NCBI GenBank assembly: GCA_964623265.1
Contig: CAZUTK010000007.1
Coordinates: 168-64,167, forward strand
Length of the DNA: 64,000 bases
Direction: 5' to 3'
Origin: an uncultured bacterium
GTDB taxonomy: Bacteria > Electryoneota > B3-LCP
Part shown: one piece after another, positions 46,616 to 57,822 of the stretch
Layout: the number at the start of each line of letters is the position of its first letter
Position numbering within the stretch: the stretch's first letter is position 1
Program-made: the position numbers and the translations under genes
Notes under the pieces: generated by a model
Told to the model about the DNA's origin: nothing
What the model saw: only the letters and a program-made list of their open reading frames with translations
Database searches by the model: none

Positions 46616-48532
46616 ATGCAACACACCGTCATCGGCACAGCCGGCCACGTGGATCACGGCAAGTCCTCTCTGATCAAGGCGCTCACGGGAACCGATCCCG
46701 ACCGCTTGCAGGAGGAAAAAGAGCGGGAGATGACGATTGATCTTGGGTTCGCGTTCCTCGGGGATCATATCACGTTCATAGACGTTCCCGGCCATGAGAA
46801 GTTCATCAAGAATATGCTTTCCGGCGTGGCGACGGTGGACGCCGTCCTGTTTGTCATCGCCGCGGATGACGGCTTTATGCCTCAGACCGAAGAGCATTTT
46901 GAGATTCTGAAGTTGTTGGAAGTCGAACGCGGCATGGTGGTTCTGACGAAAATTGATATGGTAGATCCCGATTGGCTGGACTTGATGGAAGAGGACATCC
47001 GGGAGCGTCTGGAGGGGTCTTTTCTGGAAAAAGCGCCGATTTACCGCGTGGACAGCTTAAGTTACAAAGGCATTGAAGACCTGAAGAAAGCCATCTTCGA
47101 ACTGGCGGCGAGCCTCCCGCCTCGACCGGAAAAGGGAGTTTTCCGAATGTACGTGGATCGGGTTTTCACGATCCGCGGGGCGGGCACGGTGGTGGCGGGG
47201 ACGGTTTTGGGCGGGCGCGTGAAAACGGGCGAACGCATCGAGCTGCTGCCCAGAGGGATTGAAGTCCGCGTGAAGCGCATCCAGGTGCATAACGTGGAAG
47301 TGCCGGAAGCCCGCACAGGCGAACGGGCGGCGATCAATCTGCAGGGGGTGGAAACTTCGCAGATTGCGCGCGGCGATTTGCTCGCACAAATCGGCTATTT
47401 CAAGCCGACCTATATGATCAATGCGTCCTATCTTCACCTCCGCTCCGCCGCGCGTCCACTTGAAAACCGCACGCGAGTGCGCCTGCATCTCGGCACGGCG
47501 GAATACCTAGCCCGCGCCGTGACTCTGGAAAAAAAGCCGCTGCTTCCCGGCGAGAGCGGCTTCCTGCAGTTGCGCATCGAAGCGCCTGTCGTCTGCGAAA
47601 TCGGGGATCGTTTCGTGATTCGGGATTATTCTCCGAGCCGCACCATCGGCGGAGGCAGAGTCCTGGAAGTGCACCCCAAGAAACTGAAATATCTGCCGTA
47701 CGAAGAGATTGAAGTCCTGGAAGTCCTCGATGCGGGCAGCCCTGCGGATCTGGTGGAACAGCACATCCGCCGCGGCGGCTTCAAGCCGTTCAATATCGAG
47801 ACGCTGGCTAAAGAGCTCTCGCGACCGGTGAATGAAGTCGGCGCTCTGGTCGGAGAACTTTCCGCCGCGGAAAAATTGGTGCGACTGGTGAATCCTACGA
47901 CGAACTGGTTCCTGCACCAATCGGTTTACCAGGATGCGCGGGGTCGGCTTTTAAAAATGCTGGATGAATTTCACCGAAACGCACCTTATCGGCTGGGGAT
48001 GCGGCGTTCCGAGTTGGCGGGGAAACTCTTCGGCAGTGTGGATCGTTCCCTCTACGATGCTTTCCTCGACCAGCTGATTGAGGACGAAGAATTGGATGCT
48101 TCCGGCGAAATCGTTTACCGCCGGGGACACCAAATCCGCTTCGATTCCCGCCAGGAAGCTCTGGCTCAAAAAATTCTCAAGATTTATTGGGATACGGCGT
48201 ATGTAACGCCGGAATTCGAAGAACTCGTTGACCAGTTAGGCGAATCGGCGGAAGAGGTGCGCAAAATCATCAACGGTCTGGTGGACAGTGGGGAATTGAA
48301 AGAATTAGGTATCGGCATCGGGCGCGCTTTAATCTTTCACACCGAAAGAATCGTTCAAGCCCGTGAAATCATTCTGCGGCTCTTCAGCCAGAAGAACGAG
48401 GTCGCCTTTTTCGAGGTGCGGGAAGCTCTCCAGTCCACCCGAAAATTTACGACTCCGATTCTGAATTATTTCGACCAGATAGGATTGACGGTGCGCGTGG
48501 GGGATGGGCGTATGTTGAAAGAGCGCGCCTGA
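46616..48532 (+). CDS. selB: Selenocysteine-specific translation elongation factor SelB
   Basis: N-terminal GTPase ([25 protein letters not shown]) with EF-Tu-like domains II/III. ~250-aa C-terminal winged-helix extension characteristic of SelB. Confidence 0.85.
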
Positions 48533-50615: not shown

Positions 50616-51527
50616 ATGGCTGATCCGACGCAAACGAATCGTCGAAGCCTCAGGTTTCTGCGGATCGCATTGTGGTTTGTTCTGCTGCTTTTGGTGGTTT
50701 TTCAAACATTCCTTGAAGCGCGATCCCAAAAACGGCAGGTTCGAAAACGTTTGAAATCATGCGTGGAACTCTGCGCGCAGCGGTTGGAGAAGAAGAACAG
50801 CGACTTCGGATTCGCTCTGATCGCACTGGTGGAACAGCGCTCGATTCGCGAGGGGTTTGCGCGGTTGAACGAGGAAGGGATCTCCGCAACCTGGGCGCTG
50901 GGCTTTCTGGAAGCTCTGGACGGCGCTACCAGATCTATCATGGTCTCCCATCCAGGGGTAGAAAATCTGGCGTTCCGTTCGCTGGAAGGAATCAAGCTGG
51001 CGGGTTCCGGTGCCGATCGGGATTCCATCACTTATCCGGATCTGCGTTTGCGGATGCAACGTCAGACGATCCGAAGGGAATCTGATCCGTTTACAGAACG
51101 AATCGTCGTGCCCGTTCGCGCCGCCGATGCGAGTCCGGTCGCCTTCTTAACAGCAGACCTCAATCTCAAAGGCTTTTATAGAGAGGTTCTCACCGAGTTC
51201 GATAGTGAATCGGATGCGCTGGTTCTGCTGGCGGATGCATCGGGGAGGAGAATCTGGTCAAACGACGATGAACTTGTCTTAACCGATTTTCGACAGGAAC
51301 TGCGGGAGTTCGAACACAATCGAAAAGTTTTTCTGGCGGAAAGCGCCCTCATCCCCGAGGCGAATCACAGGATTTACGCGGCTATTCCGCAGAATGTGGA
51401 GATCGCCGTGAGCTTCGAATACTTCGCGTGGAACATCGCTGCCATCGCCGTCATCATCTTGCTGTTCTGGTCGTGCGAGTCGGCGATGTTTCGAAGGAGA
51501 CACGCGCCGAAAAAGAGATCTGCGTAG
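50616..51527 (+). CDS. Hypothetical membrane protein with periplasmic sensor-like domain (TM-periplasmic-TM)
   Basis: N-terminal TM (LRIALWFVLLLLVVF). ~230-aa hydrophilic segment. C-terminal TM (IAAIAVIILLFW). Confidence 0.45.
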   Translation: MADPTQTNRRSLRFLRIALWFVLLLLVVFQTFLEARSQKRQVRKRLKSCVELCAQRLEKKNSDFGFALIALVEQRSIREGFARLNEEGISATWALGFLEALDGATRSIMVSHPGVENLAFRSLEGIKLAGSGADRDSITYPDLRLRMQRQTIRRESDPFTERIVVPVRAADASPVAFLTADLNLKGFYREVLTEFDSESDALVLLADASGRRIWSNDDELVLTDFRQELREFEHNRKVFLAESALIPEANHRIYAAIPQNVEIAVSFEYFAWNIAAIAVIILLFWSCESAMFRRRHAPKKRSA

Positions 51528-51638: not shown

Positions 51639-51845
51639 GTGAAACGGGTTCTACTTATCATCATCAGCCTGATCTTTTTCCTCGGTATATCCGTGGGATT
51701 CACCGGTTGCGGGTATCACATGGTCTATCTGCTCGATCAACCGGTCAGCGATCCCATTATGTACGCCGATGACGGTCAGGACAGTGATCTGTGCAAAGTC
51801 GAAGACGGGGGATATTCCGGTTCGTCGGGTGAGTGCCCTACGTGA
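51639..51845 (+). CDS. Small lipoprotein
   Basis: GTG start with AGAGGG SD. Signal plus lipobox GFTGC. 68 aa. Confidence 0.45.
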   Translation: MKRVLLIIISLIFFLGISVGFTGCGYHMVYLLDQPVSDPIMYADDGQDSDLCKVEDGGYSGSSGECPT

Positions 51846-51966
51846 TGACCGGATCCGCCCGGATCGGGCTTGCAAAACGAACAGATTCGTGCGCCGCATC
51901 TCTTGCAAGCGATGGTGCTCAACGTGACTCGGCGAGGTTGACCCGGATTTGCCACGGATATACAAG

Positions 51967-52956
51967 ATGTCATATAGAAAACGGATTCTCACTGCAATCT
52001 TCTATTTTGGAGGAATCACTGTCGCCCCAGCCGGTGCGGGGGTTTTAGGGTTGGGCTTCACTCAGATCAAGGCGGAATATCAGTACACCGATTATTCGCG
52101 TTACACCTACCCCAATCCCATTCTCTTCGAATACCCCAACCAAGATTATCGGCAGCCCGCCCCCTACATCAATGATTTCCCCGAGAATCGGGGATTGATC
52201 AAGGTCACCCAGGGGTTGGGGATCAATGACGCCCTGCTGGCGAAATATCAATATTCCGAGCTGGATGAGAAGAATCACCAGGACTTATTCAATATGAAAT
52301 ACGTGCGCAACCTTTCCGCTTCGACGGAAGCGCACATCAGCGGGCAGATCACGCGCGGCACCGGGGGATTCCTCGGAAAGATGATCGAAGCGGGCGGCAA
52401 GGTGGATTGGGCGGGGTTCGTACTGGCGGAAGCCGCTTACGCCTATTATTCCAATAAGGTGGATACGGCGGGTTCTTCCACCAGCGATGCGCATTCGCTG
52501 GAATTGCAATTGCGGCAGGCGCTTTCGAAGAGCACCGCCTTGCAGGTCAAATGGGCGTATTTTTTCGCCGCCGGCACAAAAGCGGATTTTTTTTCCAACA
52601 CTCTGAGTTTCTGGCTTTCGCAGTGGCTGCCTACGCAGACGGCGGTGCACCTTGAGTGGCGGGAGAACTGGAACGGTCAGCATTTCCGTTCCTGGTCCCC
52701 GGGCATCGAAATTGATCAATATCTCGGCTGGGCGACTCTAGCCACCGTGCGGGTTCGGTTCTATCAAGGACTGCCGGAAGATCCTGCGCAGCTGGAGCTG
52801 CTGCGAGGAAGCAAATTTGAAAGTTGGGCGTTTTCCGGCATCCTGAGTCATCATATCTTCGCCGAGACGGTGGTGATGTTGAAGTATCGGTACTATTGGA
52901 GCGATCAGGATATTCAGATGAACACCTATCTGATCGCCGTGGAGCATATCCTATGA
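51967..52956 (+). CDS. Hypothetical secreted protein (possible beta-barrel OMP)
   Basis: Signal peptide MSYRKRILTAIFYFGGITVAPAGA. Tyr/aromatic-rich. ORF-track start at 51949 is a TTG. Confidence 0.45.
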   Translation: MSYRKRILTAIFYFGGITVAPAGAGVLGLGFTQIKAEYQYTDYSRYTYPNPILFEYPNQDYRQPAPYINDFPENRGLIKVTQGLGINDALLAKYQYSELDEKNHQDLFNMKYVRNLSASTEAHISGQITRGTGGFLGKMIEAGGKVDWAGFVLAEAAYAYYSNKVDTAGSSTSDAHSLELQLRQALSKSTALQVKWAYFFAAGTKADFFSNTLSFWLSQWLPTQTAVHLEWRENWNGQHFRSWSPGIEIDQYLGWATLATVRVRFYQGLPEDPAQLELLRGSKFESWAFSGILSHHIFAETVVMLKYRYYWSDQDIQMNTYLIAVEHIL

Positions 52957-53849
52957 TGCGGCATTCGACGACGGCGTTGAATCAATGCGGTTCGATCCTT
53001 CTCTGGATCATGGCTGTTTTAAGTCTACACGGCTGCGGCGACCCGCCCACCACCCCCGTGGAACAACGAGGTAATATCGAAATCCACGGGATGCTGCTGC
53101 CTCAGAATGCGCCGGCGGATTCGATTTTCGTCGTTCTCGATGGAGATACATTGGGTTATGTTCCCAATCCGCACCTCTGCGCGGGTCTGTATGCCGGTAA
53201 ACATTTTGTTTCCGTAAAAACGGTGGCACTATACCTCGCGGACACGCTGGAATACCTCAGCAGTCCGGCGTACGTCACCGTCACGGCGGGACAGACTTCG
53301 CAGGCGGCGTTCAGTTTGACCACTGAAATTCCTGTTTCCCCGTATGTGGGGTATCGCGCGCCCGATTTTTCCCTGTGCGATCTGAACGGCGATACCGTCA
53401 GACTCTCAGCCCAGATGGGGAAAGTCGTGCTGCTCTACTTCTTCACCGGAACGTGAAATTTCTGCATGGGGACGGAGATTCCGGCGCTTCAAAAGCAGAT
53501 CAGCGACAGCTTCCGGGTGGTGACCGCACCGGATACCCTGGTCGAAGTGATCGCCTTAAACGAAGATCGCAGTGTCGCATTTTTATCGCAATACGCGCAA
53601 TTTGTAGGACCCTGGCCCGGAGGCGGAAACAAGGATGTCGTCATCACTTTTCCGATCCTGTTTGACAGTACCGGTGCCTCTTTTGAAGAATACGATGCGA
53701 TGAATCTCCCGTCCATCTTGTTGGTGGATCAGACCCGCAAGATCATTCTGCGTTACGACGGCGCCGCCAGCGCCGATCCCTTTTGGGATCATTTCGCTGA
53801 AATCATCGCCGGGATTCATGCGCTTTTAGAGAGCCCACCTGAGAATTGA
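52953..53849 (+). CDS. Periplasmic TlpA/ResA-like thioredoxin-fold lipoprotein, putative selenoprotein (UxxC; in-frame UGA at 53457-53459)
   Basis: ATGATG start overlaps the upstream stop. Lipoprotein signal LSLHGC. Thioredoxin-like domain APDFSLCDLNGDTVRLSAQMGKVVLLYFFTGT-[TGA]-NFCMGTEIPAL. The downstream same-frame ORF (53466-53849) continues the TlpA fold (LPSILLVDQTRKIILRY). TGA falls exactly at the first Cys of the CxxC redox motif. Confidence 0.65.
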
Positions 53850-53862
53850 ACGATGGATCACT

Positions 53863-54369
53863 ATGAGAAAATCAATGTACGGTATCCTCAGCCTGCTCAG
53901 TATAGCAGGGACGCTCGCCTTCCAGACGCGGCCGGCGGTCGCAGGTCTTCCTGTCGGTGCGCAGGCCCCTGCTTTTACCTTGACAACAACGGCGGATAAA
54001 ACGGTCTCCCTTTCCGATTTCGCGGGTAAGATCGTCATCCTGCATTTTTGGAAATCCAACTGAAGGCAGTGCCATGAGGAGATTCCTCATTTATTGAAAA
54101 TCCGCGAGCAATATCCGGAAGATAAAGTTGTCATCCTTGCGATGAACGCAATCAACCCCGCCAAGCAGGCGGAGGCTGAAGCCAAGCGCTATAACATCCC
54201 CTTCGATGTGGTGGTCTGCCGGGGTGCCGGCGTGATCCGCGATTACGAGGTCACCAAACTGCCGCAAATGTTCATCATTGACGGTAAAGGCATCATCCAG
54301 GCGAGCGAGTTGTTTATGCAAGCCGATCAGATCAAAGGGATATTGGATAAATTGCTGGCCGCCCCATGA
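53863..54369 (+). CDS. Periplasmic TlpA/ResA-like thioredoxin-fold protein, putative selenoprotein (UxxC; in-frame UGA at 54061-54063)
   Basis: Signal peptide MRKSMYGILSLLSIAGTLAFQ. FAGKIVILHFWKSN-[TGA]-RQCHEEIPHL aligns with the TlpA consensus FWASWCGPCRAEMPHL, with UGA at the first Cys. Same-frame continuation 54094-54369 completes the fold (LPQMFIIDGKGII). Confidence 0.7.
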
Positions 54370-54416
54370 CCACTCGTTCGGCGTTACCGGGCATCATCGT
54401 ACACATTGAAATCGTA

Positions 54417-54536
54417 TGAGTAAACCGAAGCTCATTTTCTTCATCTTGCTGACGCTGGCGATCGCCGCTTCTCTCGTCTGGGGGATCCTCGAGGGGCATC
54501 CGCAGGATATCCGCATGGAAGCATCCAGCCTCTGAC
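54417..54536 (+). CDS. Possible 39-aa single-TM small protein
   Basis: ATG at 54417, MSKPKLIFFILLTLAIAASLVWGILEGHPQDIRMEASSL. Below the ORF-track size cut-off. Sits between the selenoprotein gene and the GltD::NapH gene. Confidence 0.25.
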
Positions 54537-54649
54537 TGAGCTGCATCGGGCTCGGATGAGCTCTTCCAGCTGCGGATGGGGGAAGTGCGCCCGTGGGCAT
54601 TTTCCCCGATGGATTTTTCTCGCCTGTTTCAGAATCCCTGAGACGATTT

Positions 54650-57052
54650 ATGACTGGATCGAATGCAGATAGATACGCACCGAACTCAACGCCGCCTGCG
54701 GCGCCCTGCATGACGCATTGCCTGCAGGGTACGGATATCCGAACCGTTCTGCAGCTGGTGGCGAAGGTAGAGAGGGGCGAAAAGCCTCCGGATGAAGCCT
54801 TTGAAGAAGCCTGGCGCATCATCGTCGAGAAAAATCCGCTGCCTTCCGTCTGCGGGCGGGTCTGCCCTCATCCCTGCGAAGGCTACTGTCTGCGCAGCCA
54901 AGTGGATGAACCGGTCGCCGTCAACCATATCGAACGCTTCATCGGGGATTGGGGGCTGGCGCACGGTTTCAAGTTCACGAAACTCACTTCGGAGCGTCAG
55001 CTAGAAAAAGTGGCGATCGTCGGTTCCGGTCCCGCCGGATTATCTTGCGCCTATCACCTTGCGCGCCGCGGTTACGCCATAACCGTCTTCGAAGCCTTCC
55101 CCAAAGCCGGCGGCATGCTCCGCTACGGCATCCCCCCCTACCGTTTGCCCCGGCACATATTAGACGCGGAGATCGAACGGATTCTCGAGTTAGGGATTGA
55201 ACTGCGGTTGAATACGGCCGTCGGCAAAGAGATCCCTCTGGAACGGATTCAGGCGGACTATAATGCCGTTTTCATCGGCATAGGCGCTCAAAAAGCTGTA
55301 AGATTGGGGTGTCGCGGAGAAGAATGTCAAGGGGTATACGGCGGAGTGGAATTTCTGCGGTTGGTCAACAGCGGTCAACCTGTGAATATCGGAGGGACGG
55401 TCGTCGTAGTGGGCGGCGGGAACACCGCTGTAGATGCCGCCAGAACCGCCCGTCGTCTGAATCCCGAGGCGGCTGTAACTGTTCTCTACCGCCGCACTCG
55501 TGCGGAAATGCCCGCGATCGCGGAAGAAATCGAAGCCGCTCGGGAAGAAGGCGTCGAGTTTCGTTTCCTCGCCGCGCCGCTGGAGATCCAAGGCGAAAAC
55601 GGGCGATTGGCGCGCGTCCTCTGTCAGCAGATGCAACTTGCGGAGCCCGACGAATCGGGGCGCCGAAAACCAGTGCCGATCGCGGGGGAAACCTTCGTCT
55701 TATCCGCGGATACTTTGATCGCCGCCGTTTCTCAAGAGACGGACTGGGAAGGCTTGGAAACCTTGAAGGATGTCTCGAAGCCGTCTTCCAAGACGGATTC
55801 CAATGCAAGAACGGCTGATCGGGTTTATGCAGGCGGCGATGTAAAGGAGCCGGGATTAGTCGCCGAATCCATCCTTCAAGGCAGACAGGCGGCCGAGGAG
55901 ATGCACGCCCGTTTCCGCGGTTTGGAATTGCCGCCAGTTGCGGAAGTCGAGTCAATCTCGCCGGAACGAATGCACCTCGACGCCGTGCGCCCATCCCCTC
56001 GGCACCAGCCTAAGCAAATCGAGGTTTCCCAGCGCATCCAGCAGCCCTGGAAAGAAGTCTCTGCCACGCTTTCCTGCGAAAATGCTGTTCGGGAAGCCGG
56101 GCGATGCATCGGCTGCGGTGAAAGCTTCATCAAGCATCCTAAAACGCATCCCATCCATATTTTTCGGCGCGTCACTCAGATCGGCGTGGGGGCGTTTCTC
56201 TTTAACAGTTACTTTGCCGTGTTTTCCACGAAGACGCTCTACGACGGATCCTTGCGCAACGTCTGCGTCCCCGGCTTGAATTGCCACTCTTGTCCCACCG
56301 CTTTGATGGGGTGTCCTATCGGGATCGCTCAGCACTTCGCCGCGATGCATACCTTTCCCTGGTTTTTGATCGGCTTTTTAGGAGTCATCGGAGTGATTTC
56401 CGGTCGTTTCACCTGCGGATGGCTCTGCCCCTGGGGATTGGTGCAAGATCTGTTGTATCGCTTCAAGAAGCTGACCGTGCGCATTCCAAAATTTATGAAT
56501 TATCTAAAATACTCCATTCTCGTGGTCGTGGTGATCATCATACCTTACATCACATACGAGCACTGGTTCAGCAAGCTCTGCCCCTGCGGAGCGCTGATCG
56601 CGGCGATTCCTTGGGCGATCTGGAACCCTATGGATCCTGTTCTAGGCGAACCATATATCGCACCCGGCATGATCGGGACGATGTTCTGGTTGAAGATGTG
56701 GATCCTGGGCGTTTTTTTGGTGCTGTTTTTGTTCATCAAACGGCCCTTCTGCCGCACAATTTGCCCTCTGGGAGCCACCTATGCGTTGTTCAACCGCGTC
56801 TCGCTGATTTCCGTGAAGGTGGGGGAGGGCTGCGTGGACTGCGGTCAATGCCGCGCCGTCTGCCCTGTGGACCTCAATGTCCGTCGGGAAGCCAACAGCG
56901 AAGCCTGCATCAAGTGTCTGGAATGCACCCAGTGTCAGCGCATCCGGTTCTACTGGAATCGGTTCTGGCGGTTGCCGGCGCGATTGCATGGGAAACGGCG
57001 CAGGAAATTCGAGGCGATTCCGGATCCCGTCATTCCTGTTCCCGCAGAATAG
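54650..57052 (+). CDS. Fusion protein: GltD-like NAD(P)H-dependent FAD/Fe-S oxidoreductase + NapH/MauN/RdxA-type membrane polyferredoxin
   Basis: N-terminal ~470 aa: glutamate-synthase-small-subunit pattern (PSVCGRVCPHPCEGYC; VAIVGSGPAGL; GGMLRYGIPPYRLP; second NAD fold VVVVGGGNTAVD). C-terminal ~330 aa: 6 TM with CPWGL and CRTICPLG motifs plus a 2x[4Fe-4S] CxxCxxCxxxCP pair (CVDCGQCRAVCP; CIKCLECTQC). Start uncertain (ORF-track GTG 54593; ATG 54650 or 54710). Confidence 0.65.
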   Translation: MTGSNADRYAPNSTPPAAPCMTHCLQGTDIRTVLQLVAKVERGEKPPDEAFEEAWRIIVEKNPLPSVCGRVCPHPCEGYCLRSQVDEPVAVNHIERFIGDWGLAHGFKFTKLTSERQLEKVAIVGSGPAGLSCAYHLARRGYAITVFEAFPKAGGMLRYGIPPYRLPRHILDAEIERILELGIELRLNTAVGKEIPLERIQADYNAVFIGIGAQKAVRLGCRGEECQGVYGGVEFLRLVNSGQPVNIGGTVVVVGGGNTAVDAARTARRLNPEAAVTVLYRRTRAEMPAIAEEIEAAREEGVEFRFLAAPLEIQGENGRLARVLCQQMQLAEPDESGRRKPVPIAGETFVLSADTLIAAVSQETDWEGLETLKDVSKPSSKTDSNARTADRVYAGGDVKEPGLVAESILQGRQAAEEMHARFRGLELPPVAEVESISPERMHLDAVRPSPRHQPKQIEVSQRIQQPWKEVSATLSCENAVREAGRCIGCGESFIKHPKTHPIHIFRRVTQIGVGAFLFNSYFAVFSTKTLYDGSLRNVCVPGLNCHSCPTALMGCPIGIAQHFAAMHTFPWFLIGFLGVIGVISGRFTCGWLCPWGLVQDLLYRFKKLTVRIPKFMNYLKYSILVVVVIIIPYITYEHWFSKLCPCGALIAAIPWAIWNPMDPVLGEPYIAPGMIGTMFWLKMWILGVFLVLFLFIKRPFCRTICPLGATYALFNRVSLISVKVGEGCVDCGQCRAVCPVDLNVRREANSEACIKCLECTQCQRIRFYWNRFWRLPARLHGKRRRKFEAIPDPVIPVPAE

Positions 57053-57156
57053 AGACTTATCGTGGAAAAAGATTCTTCCTCGGGAACTTTGTTTTTCAGC
57101 AGCGGGTTAAGATCACGAAAAGAAAGACAATATCTGCATAATCACAAGAGGTGCAA

Positions 57157-57822
57157 ATGAAGCGAATTTTCCCCATTCTCGGGCTGGCGGTCTTGTTTTC
57201 CGCCGCCTTGATCACGCTGGCGATCACCGGTGAAACGGACGTTTCCAAGGATCCCGTCTGCGGTATGGAAGTCAATCCGGTGGAAACCGCGTTCCATCTC
57301 GACACGGAGAAAGGAACGGTTTACTTCTGCAGTCAGTACTGTTTGGAAAAATTTCAGGCAAATCCCGCCGCTTATATAGCGCCTGCTGTTGATGCGAAGA
57401 AAGCGGAGAAGACGTCCGCAGCGGAAGGATGCCGCGGTCATGAAGGGCATGCTGCATCCTCGGCTGAGAGGCATTCGCATTCCGCTGCCTCCGACTGCGA
57501 AGGAAAGTGCGGACAGACGAAAATTCAGGCGGTGAATGATTTCCACAAGAAGATGGCTCCTTTGGAAGAATGCCTGCAAAAAGGCGATTTCGACGTTTTG
57601 AAGTCCGCCGTTGCGGATCTCATTTCCGCCAAAGAAGCTATCTTGAAAGCGGAATGTCCTGCAGGGGTTCAAAAGGAAGCATTCGATGCGGCGAGAGCGG
57701 AATTCGGCGGCAAAGTAGATGCGCTCGCCGCAGCGGCTGAAACCGGTGACAAAGAGGCTCTCGCAAAGGCGTTCCAGGAAATGCACTCCGCCTATGCGGC
57801 TCTGGATGCCAGCGCGCGCTGA
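57157..57822 (+). CDS. Secreted YHS/TRASH-domain metal-binding protein with His/Cys-rich segment
   Basis: AAGAGGTG SD. Signal peptide. YHS motif DPVCGMEV ... YFCSQYCLEKFQANPAAY. CRGHEGH ... HSHSAASDCEGKCG metal-ligand-rich stretch. Ala/Glu-rich helical tail. Confidence 0.65.
   Translation: MKRIFPILGLAVLFSAALITLAITGETDVSKDPVCGMEVNPVETAFHLDTEKGTVYFCSQYCLEKFQANPAAYIAPAVDAKKAEKTSAAEGCRGHEGHAASSAERHSHSAASDCEGKCGQTKIQAVNDFHKKMAPLEECLQKGDFDVLKSAVADLISAKEAILKAECPAGVQKEAFDAARAEFGGKVDALAAAAETGDKEALAKAFQEMHSAYAALDASAR

What the first reader, a model, noticed from the sequence alone, without database searches (positions are those of the whole stretch)
54650..57052. Unusual single-polypeptide fusion of a cytoplasmic GltD-like NAD(P)H:FAD/Fe-S oxidoreductase with a NapH/MauN-type membrane polyferredoxin, embedded in a periplasmic thiol-redox/metal cluster
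Seen in sequence: one 2.4-kb ORF carries a complete glutamate-synthase-small-subunit-like module (Fe-S motif CGRVCPHPCEGYC, FAD and NAD(P) Rossmann folds). It continues without a stop into a 6-TM domain with CPWGL / CRTICPLG and two CxxCxxCxxxCP ferredoxin motifs, typical of NapH, MauN, CcoG and the NosR C-terminus.
Established knowledge: those polyferredoxins normally partner with quinol or periplasmic enzymes, and GltD-like modules feed NAD(P)H electrons into Fe-S chains.
Inference: directly upstream are two exported Sec-containing TlpA-like reductants and directly downstream a secreted YHS metal-binding protein. I therefore propose an NAD(P)H-driven transmembrane electron-delivery module, functionally analogous to DsbD/CcdA but cofactor-based, that may keep the periplasmic selenoproteins reduced.
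Basis: partly seen in the sequence, partly recalled or inferred. Interest (0 to 1): 0.65.

Follow-up and report, generated by a model that had tools for sequence, protein, structure and literature searches.

The report
NADPH-fed membrane iron-sulfur reductase for periplasmic selenoproteins
One real, conserved gene joins an NADPH-oxidising iron-sulfur flavoprotein to a four-helix membrane iron-sulfur protein whose relatives nearly always sit beside, or are fused to, an exported thioredoxin-like protein. It therefore looks like an iron-sulfur-based alternative to DsbD/CcdA for sending reducing power out of the cell, here serving two selenocysteine proteins.

Summary
The 800-aa ORF (54650..57052, +) is real and not an assembly artefact: about 30 full-length homologues (54-86% identity) exist in independent assemblies.

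The N-terminal 490 aa are best described as DsrL-2-like. They are 53% identical to a DsrL encoded inside a dsr operon and carry the NADPH-specifying YRR motif. The C-terminal 300 aa are a distant NapH-superfamily member with four TM helices, not six. Two outward-facing loops absent from E. coli NapH carry five extra invariant cysteines.

The two upstream TlpA-like genes have UxxC motifs. Their TGA codons and SECIS-like hairpins are conserved in all 11 related clusters.

New evidence:
- In 50 of 80 distant family members, a TlpA/ResA-like lipoprotein is directly adjacent (40) or fused through an extra TM helix (10). Six of these partners are also UxxC.
- The closest clade lies in or next to sel genes; selB is in this window.
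- That clade also has a conserved 27-46-aa micro-protein gene just upstream.
- A second, reverse-order DsrL fusion arose independently.

The main rival is selenium reduction or uptake for SelD.

The parts
46616..48532 (+). selB (selenocysteine-specific elongation factor), about 6 kb upstream on the same strand
   Evidence: Pfam GTP_EFTU, Beta-barrel_SelB, SelB-wing_2 and SelB-wing_3. 42.5% identity to the SelB of L006.
51639..51845 (+). 68-aa predicted lipoprotein of unknown family; first conserved gene of the cluster
   Evidence: Lipobox-like FTGC in the translation. 63-90% identical copies at the same position in L001, L003, L004, L087, L088 and L090. No Pfam or NCBIfam family.
51949..52956 (+). 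335-aa exported protein of unknown family, possibly an outer-membrane protein (inference only)
   Evidence: Conserved at 63-88% identity in all related clusters. No Pfam or NCBIfam hit. Its stop codon overlaps the start of TlpA-U1.
52953..53849 (+). TlpA-U1: lipoprotein with an N-terminal extra domain and a redoxin fold; redox motif U-N-F-C
   Evidence: Pfam AhpC-TSA 50.9 bits and Redoxin 33 bits with U read as C. TGA conserved in 11 clusters.
53454..53499 (+). Sec codon (53454-53456) of TlpA-U1 and its downstream SECIS-like hairpin
   Evidence: Fold. Conserved core CGGAGAUUCCG 18-20 nt after the TGA in all homologues.
53863..54369 (+). TlpA-U2: secreted TlpA/ResA-like redoxin; redox motif W-K-S-N-U-R-Q-C
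   Evidence: Pfam AhpC-TSA 82 bits and Redoxin 61.7 bits. NCBIfam ResA 87 bits, below the 170-bit cutoff. TGA conserved in 11 clusters.
54061..54090 (+). Sec codon (54061-54063) of TlpA-U2 and its SECIS-like hairpin
   Evidence: Fold z = -1.9. Compensatory changes GAGG/CCUC versus GCGG/CCGC among homologues.
54416..54535 (+). Conserved 39-aa micro-protein: one TM helix and the C-terminal tail GHPQDIRMEASSL
   Evidence: Same-position ORFs ending ...G[DH]P.D.R.E[AS]S[GTS]L* in 15 loci matched by the pattern scan (window, L001-L006, L087-L090, L093, L096, L097). L098 has a near-variant ending IESATL. These loci include both TlpA-cluster and sel-operon contexts. The ORF is absent upstream of distant family members.
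54650..56119 (+). DsrL-2-like NADPH:iron-sulfur oxidoreductase module (aa 1-490): N-terminal 2x[4Fe-4S] domain, FAD and NADP Rossmann folds, linker, and remnant C486xxC489
   Evidence: Pfam and NCBIfam. 53% identity to P0082, which is encoded in a dsrABDN-L-C-MKJOP operon. Invariant Y280-R281-R282 matches the DsrL-2 NADP(H) motif (PMC7596348). AF2 pLDDT mostly 80-95.
56132..57052 (+). NapH-superfamily membrane polyferredoxin module (aa 495-800): 4 TM helices, 2 inner CX3CP motifs, 5 invariant Cys in two outward loops, and a C-terminal 2x[4Fe-4S] ferredoxin domain
   Evidence: NapH/MauN 69-74 bits, below the 213-bit cutoff. Invariant Cys listed. Alignment with E. coli NapH. AF2 pLDDT 77, pTM 0.72. 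Positive-inside counts.
57151..57822 (+). Exported YHS (TRASH-type, Cys-rich) metal-binding protein with a helical C-terminal part
   Evidence: Pfam YHS 36 bits. Conserved downstream in L001, L003, L004, L088-L092 and L096, but replaced by selA in L093 and absent in L094.

Best explanation
The gene encodes a self-contained, NADPH-driven device that carries electrons across the membrane.

Shown by sequence and homology:
- A cytoplasmic DsrL-2-type module has an NADPH site with the YRR motif, FAD, and two [4Fe-4S] clusters.
- It is covalently joined to a 4-TM NapH-superfamily polyferredoxin, which has a cytoplasmic 2x[4Fe-4S] domain and two inner-face CX3CP motifs.
- This polyferredoxin clade has five extra invariant cysteines in its two outward-facing loops (C539, C545-x-x-C548, C555; C644).

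Inferred steps:
1. NADPH reduces FAD, and electrons pass along the Fe-S chain to the membrane module.
2. The membrane module, together with the 39-aa micro-protein, relays them to the outer-loop cysteine site. That site could be an Fe-S or metal site, or a CxxC-type thiol relay as in FTR or DsbD; which one is unknown.
3. The outer site reduces the selenenylsulfide (U-x-x-C) of the two exported TlpA-like selenoproteins encoded just upstream.
4. These selenoproteins then keep unknown envelope targets reduced, possibly the Cys-rich YHS protein or the 68-aa and 335-aa cluster proteins.

Functionally it works like DsbD/CcdA plus thioredoxin reductase in one chain, but with iron-sulfur cofactors and without homology to DsbD. 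Its placement in a selenium-utilisation gene island is explained by its partners being selenoproteins.
For: 1. Domain content and conserved ligands.
2. DsrL identity of the N-terminal module and its YRR motif. DsrL clusters titrate at -330/-390 mV (PMC7596348). That potential suits a low-potential selenenylsulfide; the selenenylsulfide value itself is from memory.
3. Topology. The NADPH domain must be cytoplasmic. Loops after TM2 and TM4 average 4.0 and 3.9 K+R, against 1.1 K+R and 3.2 D+E for loop 3. This puts the extra Cys loops outside and the Fe-S domain inside, as in NapH.
4. E. coli NapH lacks exactly the two Cys-bearing loop segments.
5. The cluster TlpA-U1, TlpA-U2, micro-ORF, NapH-like gene is conserved in 12 loci, even where the flanking genes differ (L093, L094).
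6. Family-wide partner. Of 80 distant loci, 50 carry a TlpA/ResA-like lipoprotein that is adjacent (40) or fused via a fifth TM helix (10). 77 of 80 keep the 4-Cys loop.
7. The partner switches between Sec and Cys forms. Six distant loci also have a TGA-encoded UxxC.
8. Two independent fusions to a DsrL-like module, one N-terminal and one C-terminal, show that this NADPH module is a natural electron donor.
9. NapH-like proteins have already been proposed as modular transmembrane electron-transfer units for extracytosolic redox partners (PMC8238504).
Against: - No experiment exists, and no solved structure matches the membrane part.
- I could not inspect AF2 coordinates, so the position of the outer-loop cysteines relative to the bilayer and to the CX3CP motifs is unknown.
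- TM1 is only weakly hydrophobic, and loop 1 carries 3.6 K+R, so loop 1 could be re-entrant rather than exposed.
- Assembling an Fe-S cluster on the outer face would be unusual.
- Four close standalone orthologues (L005, L006, L097, L098) are the first gene of sel operons with no TlpA gene within 1.5 kb.
- 30 of 80 distant loci have no adjacent thioredoxin-like gene.
- Part of the synteny with DapF, YchF and MFS reflects shared ancestry.
- The direction of electron flow is inferred, not shown.
Confidence: 0.55

Rival explanations
1. Selenium supply. The membrane module works like CcoG but on selenium. It binds an oxidised selenium species (selenite adduct, selenotrisulfide or Se(0)) on its cysteine motifs. 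It then reduces that species with NADPH-derived electrons to give selenide for SelD. The TlpA-U pair, the 335-aa protein, the lipoprotein and the YHS protein would act as periplasmic capture and relay components.
For: - Seven close or related loci place the gene in or beside sel genes. In L005, L006, L097 and L098 it comes directly before selA (micro-ORF, NapH-like, selA, with selB and selD further on in L006, L097 and L098). L010 has it before selD, L093 has the fusion before selA, and L095 has the reverse fusion divergent from selA-selB.
- selB is in this window, and selD lies 6 kb away in L096.
- The sel-operon context is basal in the clade tree.
- The only enzymatically characterised relative with a substrate-reducing role, CcoG, reduces a thiophilic ion using its [4Fe-4S] clusters and has no known electron donor (PMC7558416).
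- A recent review states that no specific high-affinity selenium uptake system is known in prokaryotes (PMC13188914).
Against: - Most distant family members pair with ordinary Cys-type TlpA/ResA lipoproteins and have no sel genes nearby; only 1 of 80 is sel-linked.
- Selenoprotein genes commonly sit next to sel genes, so the linkage is explained by the Sec-containing partners.
- Published comparative searches for selenium-trait genes do not list such a protein (PMC5322559 and PMC9312934).
Confidence: 0.18
2. NADPH:menaquinone oxidoreductase. As in NapGH, the NapH-like part exchanges electrons with the quinone pool. The fusion would then be an alternative non-pumping NAD(P)H dehydrogenase, and the neighbouring genes would be unrelated passengers.
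For: - NapH is regarded as the quinol-interacting subunit of NapGH (cited in PMC8238504).
- The CX3CP motifs and the ferredoxin domain are shared with E. coli NapH.
Against: - This does not explain the five extra invariant outer-loop cysteines, the family-wide adjacency or fusion to exported thioredoxin-fold proteins, the micro-protein, or the sel linkage.
- The NapH/MauN score is far below the family cutoff.
Confidence: 0.1
3. Metal handling. This would be a CcoG-like cupric (or other thiophilic metal) reductase fed by NADPH. It would work with the YHS/TRASH metal-binding protein, and the TlpA-like proteins would keep the metal-binding cysteines reduced, as TlpA does for ScoI and CoxB.
For: - A YHS-domain gene lies directly downstream in the window and in 8 or more related loci.
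- CcoG is a cupric reductase with an unknown donor, and TlpA reduces the Cu-site cysteines of CoxB and ScoI (PMC7558416).
Against: - The YHS gene is missing in L093 and L094, in all sel-operon loci, and in the distant family.
- The CcoG model scores only 14.6 bits against a 316.7-bit cutoff.
- This does not explain the selenium linkage.
Confidence: 0.08
4. Assembly or frameshift artefact that joins two separate genes.
For: None found.
Against: - About 30 independent full-length homologues come from different assemblers and samples, with a continuous, conserved junction.
- Six further metagenome loci carry the same fusion.
- GC composition shows no break.
Confidence: 0.01

Closest known systems
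NapH (E. coli NapGH quinol dehydrogenase) and the NapH/MauN family
   Same: Four TM helices with both termini inside. Two CX3CP motifs after TM2 and TM4. A W..NP motif in loop 3. A C-terminal 8-Cys two-cluster ferredoxin domain (alignment A3).
   Different: Only 28% identity, and 69-74 bits against a 213-bit cutoff. It has two loop insertions with five invariant Cys that NapH lacks. There is no nap operon and no NapG. It is fused to an NADPH-oxidising module, and it has a micro-protein partner.
NapH-like modules of flavinylated extracytosolic systems (NosR, PceC; Meheust et al. 2021, PMC8238504)
   Same: The same PF12801 membrane Fe-S module, proposed to carry electrons across the membrane to an extracytosolic redox carrier. 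It is used in a modular way with different partners.
   Different: The outside partner here is a thioredoxin-fold (seleno)protein, not an ApbE-flavinylated FMN domain. No FMN-binding domain was found in the fusion protein by Pfam. The electron donor is built in as NADPH.
DsbD / CcdA / ScsB
   Same: The proposed job is the same: passing cytoplasmic reducing power to exported TlpA/ResA/CcmG-type thioredoxin-fold proteins. Some relatives have a tethered outside thioredoxin domain, as DsbD has its gamma domain.
   Different: No sequence homology and no PF02683 hit. It is rich in Fe-S cofactors rather than relying on a single Cys pair. It draws on NADPH directly rather than on thioredoxin.
DsrL-2 (NADPH:acceptor oxidoreductase of dissimilatory sulfite reductase) and NfnB/GltD
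   Same: 53% identity over 475 aa to a dsr-operon DsrL. It has the N-terminal two-cluster domain, FAD and NADP folds, the linker and the YRR motif.
   Different: The C-terminal ferredoxin domain that defines DsrL is reduced to CxxC and replaced by a membrane polyferredoxin. There are no dsr genes in the window. The PRK12771 score of 482.9 is below the 516-bit cutoff.
CcoG (FixG/RdxA) cupric reductase
   Same: It belongs to the same broad superfamily of membrane polyferredoxins with Cys motifs and two [4Fe-4S] clusters. Its physiological electron donor is unknown, and the fusion suggests what such a donor can be.
   Different: Very weak similarity: 14.6 bits against a 316.7-bit cutoff. The Cys-loop architecture differs, and there is no cco context.
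Ferredoxin:thioredoxin reductase and HdrB (Fe-S-mediated disulfide reduction; from general knowledge)
   Same: These give a chemical precedent for turning one-electron Fe-S chemistry into two-electron disulfide reduction. CPC/CHC-like motifs are reminiscent of C644-P-C646 and C545-H-S-C548.
   Different: No homology was tested or claimed. Those enzymes are soluble.

Membership tests
GltD/NfnB/DsrL-type NAD(P)H oxidoreductases (NCBIfam PRK12771) | N-terminal two-[4Fe-4S] domain (Pfam Fer4_20) | tested here: met
   59.1 bits against a 25.8-bit cutoff, aa 18-105. C24, C28, C68, C72, C76, C80 and E95 are invariant or nearly so.
GltD/NfnB/DsrL-type NAD(P)H oxidoreductases (NCBIfam PRK12771) | FAD Rossmann fold with an embedded NAD(P) fold | tested here: met
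   Pyr_redox_2 93.9 bits and Pyr_redox 45.7 bits. GSGPAG and GGGNTA motifs are invariant.
GltD/NfnB/DsrL-type NAD(P)H oxidoreductases (NCBIfam PRK12771) | Whole-protein score at or above the curated cutoff | tested here: not met
   482.9 bits against a 516-bit cutoff. Profile positions 516-566 (the C-terminal ferredoxin) are unmatched.
DsrL (criteria of Loffler et al. 2020, PMC7596348) | [quoted passage not shown] | tested here: not met
   Only C486xxC489 remains before TM1. The full domain is kept only in homologue P0032.
DsrL (criteria of Loffler et al. 2020, PMC7596348) | Organism encodes dsrAB, or the gene is linked to dsr genes | not testable with these tools
   I saw no dsr genes near the fusion in the window (ORF listings; not specifically searched), and the rest of the genome is not available. 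The unfused relative P0082 is in a dsr operon.
DsrL (criteria of Loffler et al. 2020, PMC7596348) | YRR motif (type 2, NADP(H)-specific) | tested here: met
   Y280-R281-R282 is invariant in 18 of 18 aligned fusions.
NapH/MauN family (TIGR02163; NF007013 NapH) | Score at or above the curated cutoff | tested here: not met
   69-74 bits against 213, and 61-65 bits against 234.
NapH/MauN family (TIGR02163; NF007013 NapH) | 4 TM helices, two CX3CP motifs, and a C-terminal 2x[4Fe-4S] domain | tested here: met
   Alignment with E. coli NapH, AF2 helices and invariant Cys.
NapH/MauN family (TIGR02163; NF007013 NapH) | Encoded with napG/napA or mau genes | tested here: not met
   No such neighbours in the window or in any related locus.
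CcoG/FixG/RdxA (TIGR02745) | Score at or above the cutoff, and ccoGHIS context | tested here: not met
   14.6 bits against 316.7. No cco genes nearby.
DsbD/CcdA (Pfam PF02683) | Homology to the DsbD transmembrane domain | tested here: not met
   No DsbD-family hit in Pfam at E <= 0.01. The resemblance is functional only.
TlpA/ResA-type exported thiol-disulfide reductases (the two upstream genes) | Thioredoxin/redoxin fold, export signal, and a W/F-x-x-x-CxxC active site | tested here: met
   AhpC-TSA and Redoxin above cutoffs. Signal or lipobox sequences in the translations. The motif is UxxC instead of CxxC. The ResA model scores 87 and 49.5 bits, below the 170-bit cutoff.
Bacterial selenoproteins | Conserved in-frame TGA aligned with Cys in homologues, a downstream SECIS hairpin, and Sec machinery in the genome | tested here: met
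   TGA is conserved in 11 of 11 clusters, with Cys (TGC) in distant homologues. A conserved hairpin shows compensatory changes. selB is in the window. No Sec insertion experiment exists.
YHS domain proteins (PF04945) | YHS domain above the gathering score | tested here: met
   36.0 bits against 30.3, aa 33-76.

The most novel reading that the evidence does not exclude
The 4-Cys-loop clade of NapH-like polyferredoxins would be a widespread route for exporting reducing power to extracytoplasmic thioredoxin-fold proteins. It would be iron-sulfur based, independent of thioredoxin, and independent of CcdA/DsbD. The scan found 551 or more relatives, including many gut Firmicutes. The window would show its most explicit form: the electron donor (NADPH, via a DsrL-2 module) is fused on, the acceptors are selenoproteins, a dedicated micro-protein subunit is present, and the whole unit is embedded in the selenocysteine gene island. 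A further possibility is that the same unit doubles as the missing dedicated selenium reduction or uptake step that feeds SelD.
Probability: 0.4. Interest if true: 0.85.

Novelty: new variant of a known kind. Interest (0 to 1): 0.7.

Why it matters
To my knowledge, reducing power for exported thioredoxin-like proteins (cytochrome c maturation, repair of oxidised envelope proteins, Cu-site assembly) is known to cross the membrane only through the DsbD/CcdA/ScsB cysteine relay.

A second, cofactor-based route would change how envelope redox homeostasis is annotated in many anaerobes. These include abundant gut Clostridia, where the NapH-like and TlpA-like pair is common.

The fusion also names a physiological electron donor for a NapH/CcoG-type polyferredoxin. 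That donor is currently unknown for CcoG and only assumed to be quinol for NapH.

The tight link to selenocysteine genes and Sec-containing partners gives a testable reason for the arrangement. A selenenylsulfide is harder to reduce than a disulfide and may need a low-potential Fe-S donor.

It also flags a candidate for the still-unknown dedicated selenium acquisition step.

Tried and rejected
1. **Artefact or frameshift.** Rejected.
2. **First neighbourhood screen.** Plain tblastn and blastp clustering found few thioredoxin-like neighbours in the 80 distant loci, which suggested no conserved partner. That was a sensitivity failure. An iterated profile search (jackhmmer) found 50 of 80 adjacent or fused.
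3. **Solved structures.** A profile search of PDB sequences matched only the ferredoxin part. Foldseek of the AF2 C-domain model against the PDB gave nothing with E <= 0.001.
4. **Full-length AF2 model.** Poor in the membrane half (pLDDT 50-70). The C-domain model was better (77), but coordinates cannot be inspected, so Cys-Cys distances could not be measured.
5. **Metagenome scan with the single C-domain sequence.** Returned only 6 loci.
6. **tRNA-Sec.** No tRNA gene was found in the window.
7. **SECIS-like motif scan.** Found no further selenoprotein genes next to the sel-operon copies.
8. **Literature searches.** Searches for a NapH-like or polyferredoxin link to selenium or to TlpA/CcdA found no description of this system. 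The library is incomplete, so this is not proof of novelty.
9. **Peroxiredoxin reading of the TlpA-U genes.** Rejected. The T-x-x-U peroxidatic context is not conserved among homologues, whereas the TlpA/ResA-type F-W-x-x-x-U-x-x-C context is.
10. **Promoter and terminator scan.** Not above shuffled expectation.

Full report
**1. The observation**

The window has one uninterrupted ORF from 54593 (GTG) or 54650 (ATG) to 57052 on the + strand. The ATG start gives 800 aa. It matches the N-termini of homologues and the identical 800-aa database entry P0001.

Pfam places Fer4_20 at aa 18-105, Pyr_redox_2 at 120-411 and Fer4_5 at 572-607. NCBIfam places PRK12771 ('NAD(P)-binding protein') at aa 13-493 and NapH/MauN at 504-764.

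Four details need correcting:
- The membrane part has four long helices, not six.
- The second ferredoxin motif is CxxCxxCxxC.
- The N-terminal half is more precisely DsrL-like than GltD-like.
- A small conserved ORF lies between the TlpA genes and the fusion gene.

**2. Not an artefact**

A search of 5.8 billion proteins returned about 30 full-length clusters. They are 758-854 aa long, 47-86% identical, and cover at least 92% of the query. They come from NCBI, JGI, ENA and Logan assemblies, and where named belong to Calditrichota, Zixibacteria, LCP-89 and Hatepunaea.

The junction aligns without gaps. One homologue (P0032) still has the complete two-cluster ferredoxin domain between the two halves. 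Another (P0033) has the opposite order: NapH-like, then DsrL-like, then ferredoxin. In a neighbour-joining tree of the membrane domain, the N-terminal fusions form one clade, while P0033 branches far away. The two modules were therefore joined at least twice.

**3. The N-terminal module**

The next-best hits are unfused proteins of about 560 aa. One of them, P0082, is 53% identical to fusion residues 18-491. It is encoded in the order dsrA, dsrB, dsrD, dsrN, P0082, dsrC, then dsrMKJOP, so it is DsrL.

DsrL is an NAD(P)H:acceptor oxidoreductase. It has an N-terminal two-cluster domain, FAD and NAD(P) folds, a linker of about 100 aa and a C-terminal two-cluster ferredoxin domain. Type 2 enzymes carry a YRR motif and use only NADP(H). 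Their clusters titrate at about -330 and -390 mV (PMC7596348).

The fusion has an invariant Y280-R281-R282. Of the DsrL C-terminal ferredoxin domain it keeps only C486xxC489. From this I infer an NADPH-specific electron-input module whose own output domain has been replaced by the membrane protein.

**4. The C-terminal module**

On its own, the C-terminal domain finds more than 6,600 standalone proteins of 270-320 aa, annotated 'polyferredoxin', '4Fe-4S binding protein' or 'NapH'.

It scores 69-74 bits on the NapH/MauN model, whose cutoff is 213, so it is a superfamily relative and not a member. No solved structure matches the membrane part.

Alignment with E. coli NapH gives 28% identity. Both share two CX3CP motifs, W..NP and eight ferredoxin cysteines. 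NapH lacks two loop segments that carry five cysteines here. These are C539, C545, C548 and C555 after TM1, and C644 after TM3. All five are invariant in 28 of 28 sequences.

The NADPH domain must be cytoplasmic. The segments after TM2 and TM4 are K/R-rich (4.0 and 3.9), while loop 3 is acidic (1.1 K+R, 3.2 D+E). The ferredoxin domain and the CX3CP motifs are therefore inside, and the two Cys-bearing loops face outward or re-enter from outside. This is inference. TM1 is weakly hydrophobic, and I could not inspect model coordinates.

**5. The neighbours**

Both upstream genes are exported redoxin-fold proteins. The first Cys of each CxxC motif is encoded by TGA. Both TGA codons are conserved in all 11 homologous clusters.

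Each TGA is followed by a hairpin with the conserved core CGGAGAUUCCG and compensatory stem changes. selB lies 6 kb upstream. I accept both genes as selenoproteins.

The order 68-aa lipoprotein, 335-aa protein, TlpA-U1, TlpA-U2, micro-ORF, NapH-like gene is found in every fusion locus with enough flank. It also occurs in two loci where the NapH-like gene stands alone (L004, L096).

Part of this is lineage synteny, because DapF, YchF and MFS are also conserved. But L093 and L094 have different flanks and keep the core cluster. The YHS gene is conserved only in the closer relatives.

**6. Two unexpected findings**

First, a micro-ORF of 27-46 aa sits directly upstream of the NapH-like gene. It has one TM helix and a tail of the form G-D/H-P-x-D-x-R-x-E-A/S-S-G/T-L-stop. 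It is present in nearly every clade member at 50% identity or above that has upstream sequence; no such ORF was found in L094. It is absent from more distant members.

Second, this clade is tied to the selenocysteine machinery:
- L005, L006, L097 and L098 have the order micro-ORF, NapH-like, selA, often with overlapping coding regions. L006, L097 and L098 continue with selB and selD.
- L010 has NapH-like followed by selD.
- L093 has selD, then the cluster, then the fusion, then selA.
- L095 has the reverse fusion divergent from selA-selB.

Every close relative I could examine is next to either selenoprotein genes or sel genes.

**7. The decisive comparison**

A scan of species-representative genomes gave 551 or more relatives. 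The 80 loci kept are distant (34-49% identity) and mostly Firmicutes.

My first BLAST-level screen missed their partners. An iterated profile search gave a different picture:
- 34 loci have a TlpA/ResA-like lipoprotein gene within 600 bp upstream on the same strand.
- 6 loci have one directly downstream.
- 10 loci have the NapH-like protein continuing through a fifth TM helix and a Gly/Asp-rich linker into an outside TlpA-like domain with the motif FWG.WC.PC.
- 77 of 80 keep the 4-Cys loop.

Six further partners have TGA at the first active-site position (L010, L031, L034, L035, L039, L084).

An adjacency or fusion rate of 62% to one small family is far beyond chance. It identifies the exported thioredoxin-fold protein as the family-wide partner. 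The Sec/Cys interchange in that partner accounts for the sel linkage.

**8. Mechanism**

Shown by sequence: the cofactor-binding motifs, the domain order, the partner genes and the selenoprotein status.

Inferred: NADPH reduces FAD. Electrons pass through the DsrL-type clusters to the ferredoxin domain and the CX3CP region of the membrane module. They then reach the outer Cys site, and finally the U-x-x-C of TlpA-U1 and TlpA-U2, which reduce envelope targets.

How electrons cross is unknown. One option is a chain of Fe-S or metal sites. The other is an FTR- or DsbD-like conversion into a thiol-disulfide relay; C545-x-x-C548 is a classic CxxC motif.

A low-potential donor makes sense, because a selenenylsulfide is harder to reduce than a disulfide. 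That statement is from memory and not from a tool.

The concept that NapH-like proteins are modular transmembrane electron-transfer units is published for flavinylated systems (PMC8238504). The pairing with thioredoxin-fold partners, the fused NADPH donor, the micro-protein and the selenium context are, as far as my searches went, not described.

**9. Rivals**

- **Selenium reduction or uptake for SelD (0.18).** This is the strongest rival. It rests on the sel-operon copies that lack nearby TlpA genes, and on the CcoG precedent of reducing a thiophilic substrate.
- **NADPH:quinone oxidoreductase (0.10).** It does not explain the extra cysteines or the partners.
- **Copper or other metal handling with the YHS protein (0.08).** It does not explain the selenium link, and the YHS gene is not consistently present.
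- **Artefact.** Excluded.

**10. Verdict**

I class it as a new variant of a known kind: a NapH-like transmembrane electron-transfer module doing a DsbD-like job. Interest is 0.7.

Noticed in passing
window 54416-54535 (+); also L001 5768, L003 5719, L004 5726, L005 5889, L006 5745, L097 6830, L098 6827: A conserved micro-ORF of 27-46 aa lies directly upstream of the NapH-like gene. It has one TM helix and the C-terminal tail ...GDP.D.R.E[AS]S[GT]L-stop. It occurs in both the TlpA-cluster and sel-operon contexts and has no Pfam or NCBIfam family. It is probably a small subunit.
   Followed up: partly
L097 11135-12469; L098 11182-13254; L006 11771-12550; L095 13479-16496: Genes for HGD-D (2-hydroxyglutaryl-CoA dehydratase-like) and BcrAD/BadFG-type ATPase activators sit inside or beside sel operons, between selB and selD, in four loci. 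An ATP-driven low-potential reductase in a selenium operon could relate to selenide generation.
   Followed up: no
L052 7935-9545, L072 7965-9431, L078 6374-7855, L073 7611-9539 (and L056, L064, L071, L074, L083, L085): In Firmicutes the NapH-like protein is fused through a fifth TM helix and a Gly/Asp-rich linker to an extracytoplasmic TlpA/ResA-like domain. This is a Rosetta-stone fusion.
   Followed up: yes
L010 7145; L031 5482; L034 6300; L035 7525; L039 1301; L084 7505: The thioredoxin-like lipoproteins next to distant NapH-like genes also have TGA at the first active-site position (G-U-x-x-C). In four of the five Firmicute-type loci (not L035) a GCUGCAGUUGC[AG]GCC-type element follows. 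These are likely unannotated selenoproteins that gene callers split in two.
   Followed up: partly
window 51639-52956 and 50616-51527: Three conserved cluster genes have no Pfam or NCBIfam family: a 68-aa lipoprotein with two further Cys, a 335-aa exported protein, and a 303-aa protein with an N-terminal TM helix. Their roles are unknown; they could be an outer-membrane channel or substrates of the TlpA-U pair.
   Followed up: partly
window 54577-54608 (+): A 12-bp-stem hairpin followed by a T-run lies between the micro-ORF and the fusion gene and overlaps the alternative GTG start. It could be a partial terminator or attenuator. The overall count of terminator-like sites is not above the shuffled expectation.
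   Followed up: no
L099 (same contig as L004, GCA_054018255.1): The genome with a standalone NapH-like/TlpA-U cluster also has a complete dsrABDN-L-C-MKJOP locus about 50 kb away on the same contig. This lineage is probably a dissimilatory sulfite/sulfate reducer or a sulfur oxidiser, and DsrL was available as the source of the fused module.
   Followed up: partly
one search hits P0144, P0162, P0187, P0196, P0203 (421-471 aa): Some close relatives of the membrane module carry extra C-terminal 4Fe-4S dicluster domains (Fer4_11 and similar) instead of a DsrL module. That would be an alternative cytoplasmic electron-input extension.
   Followed up: no
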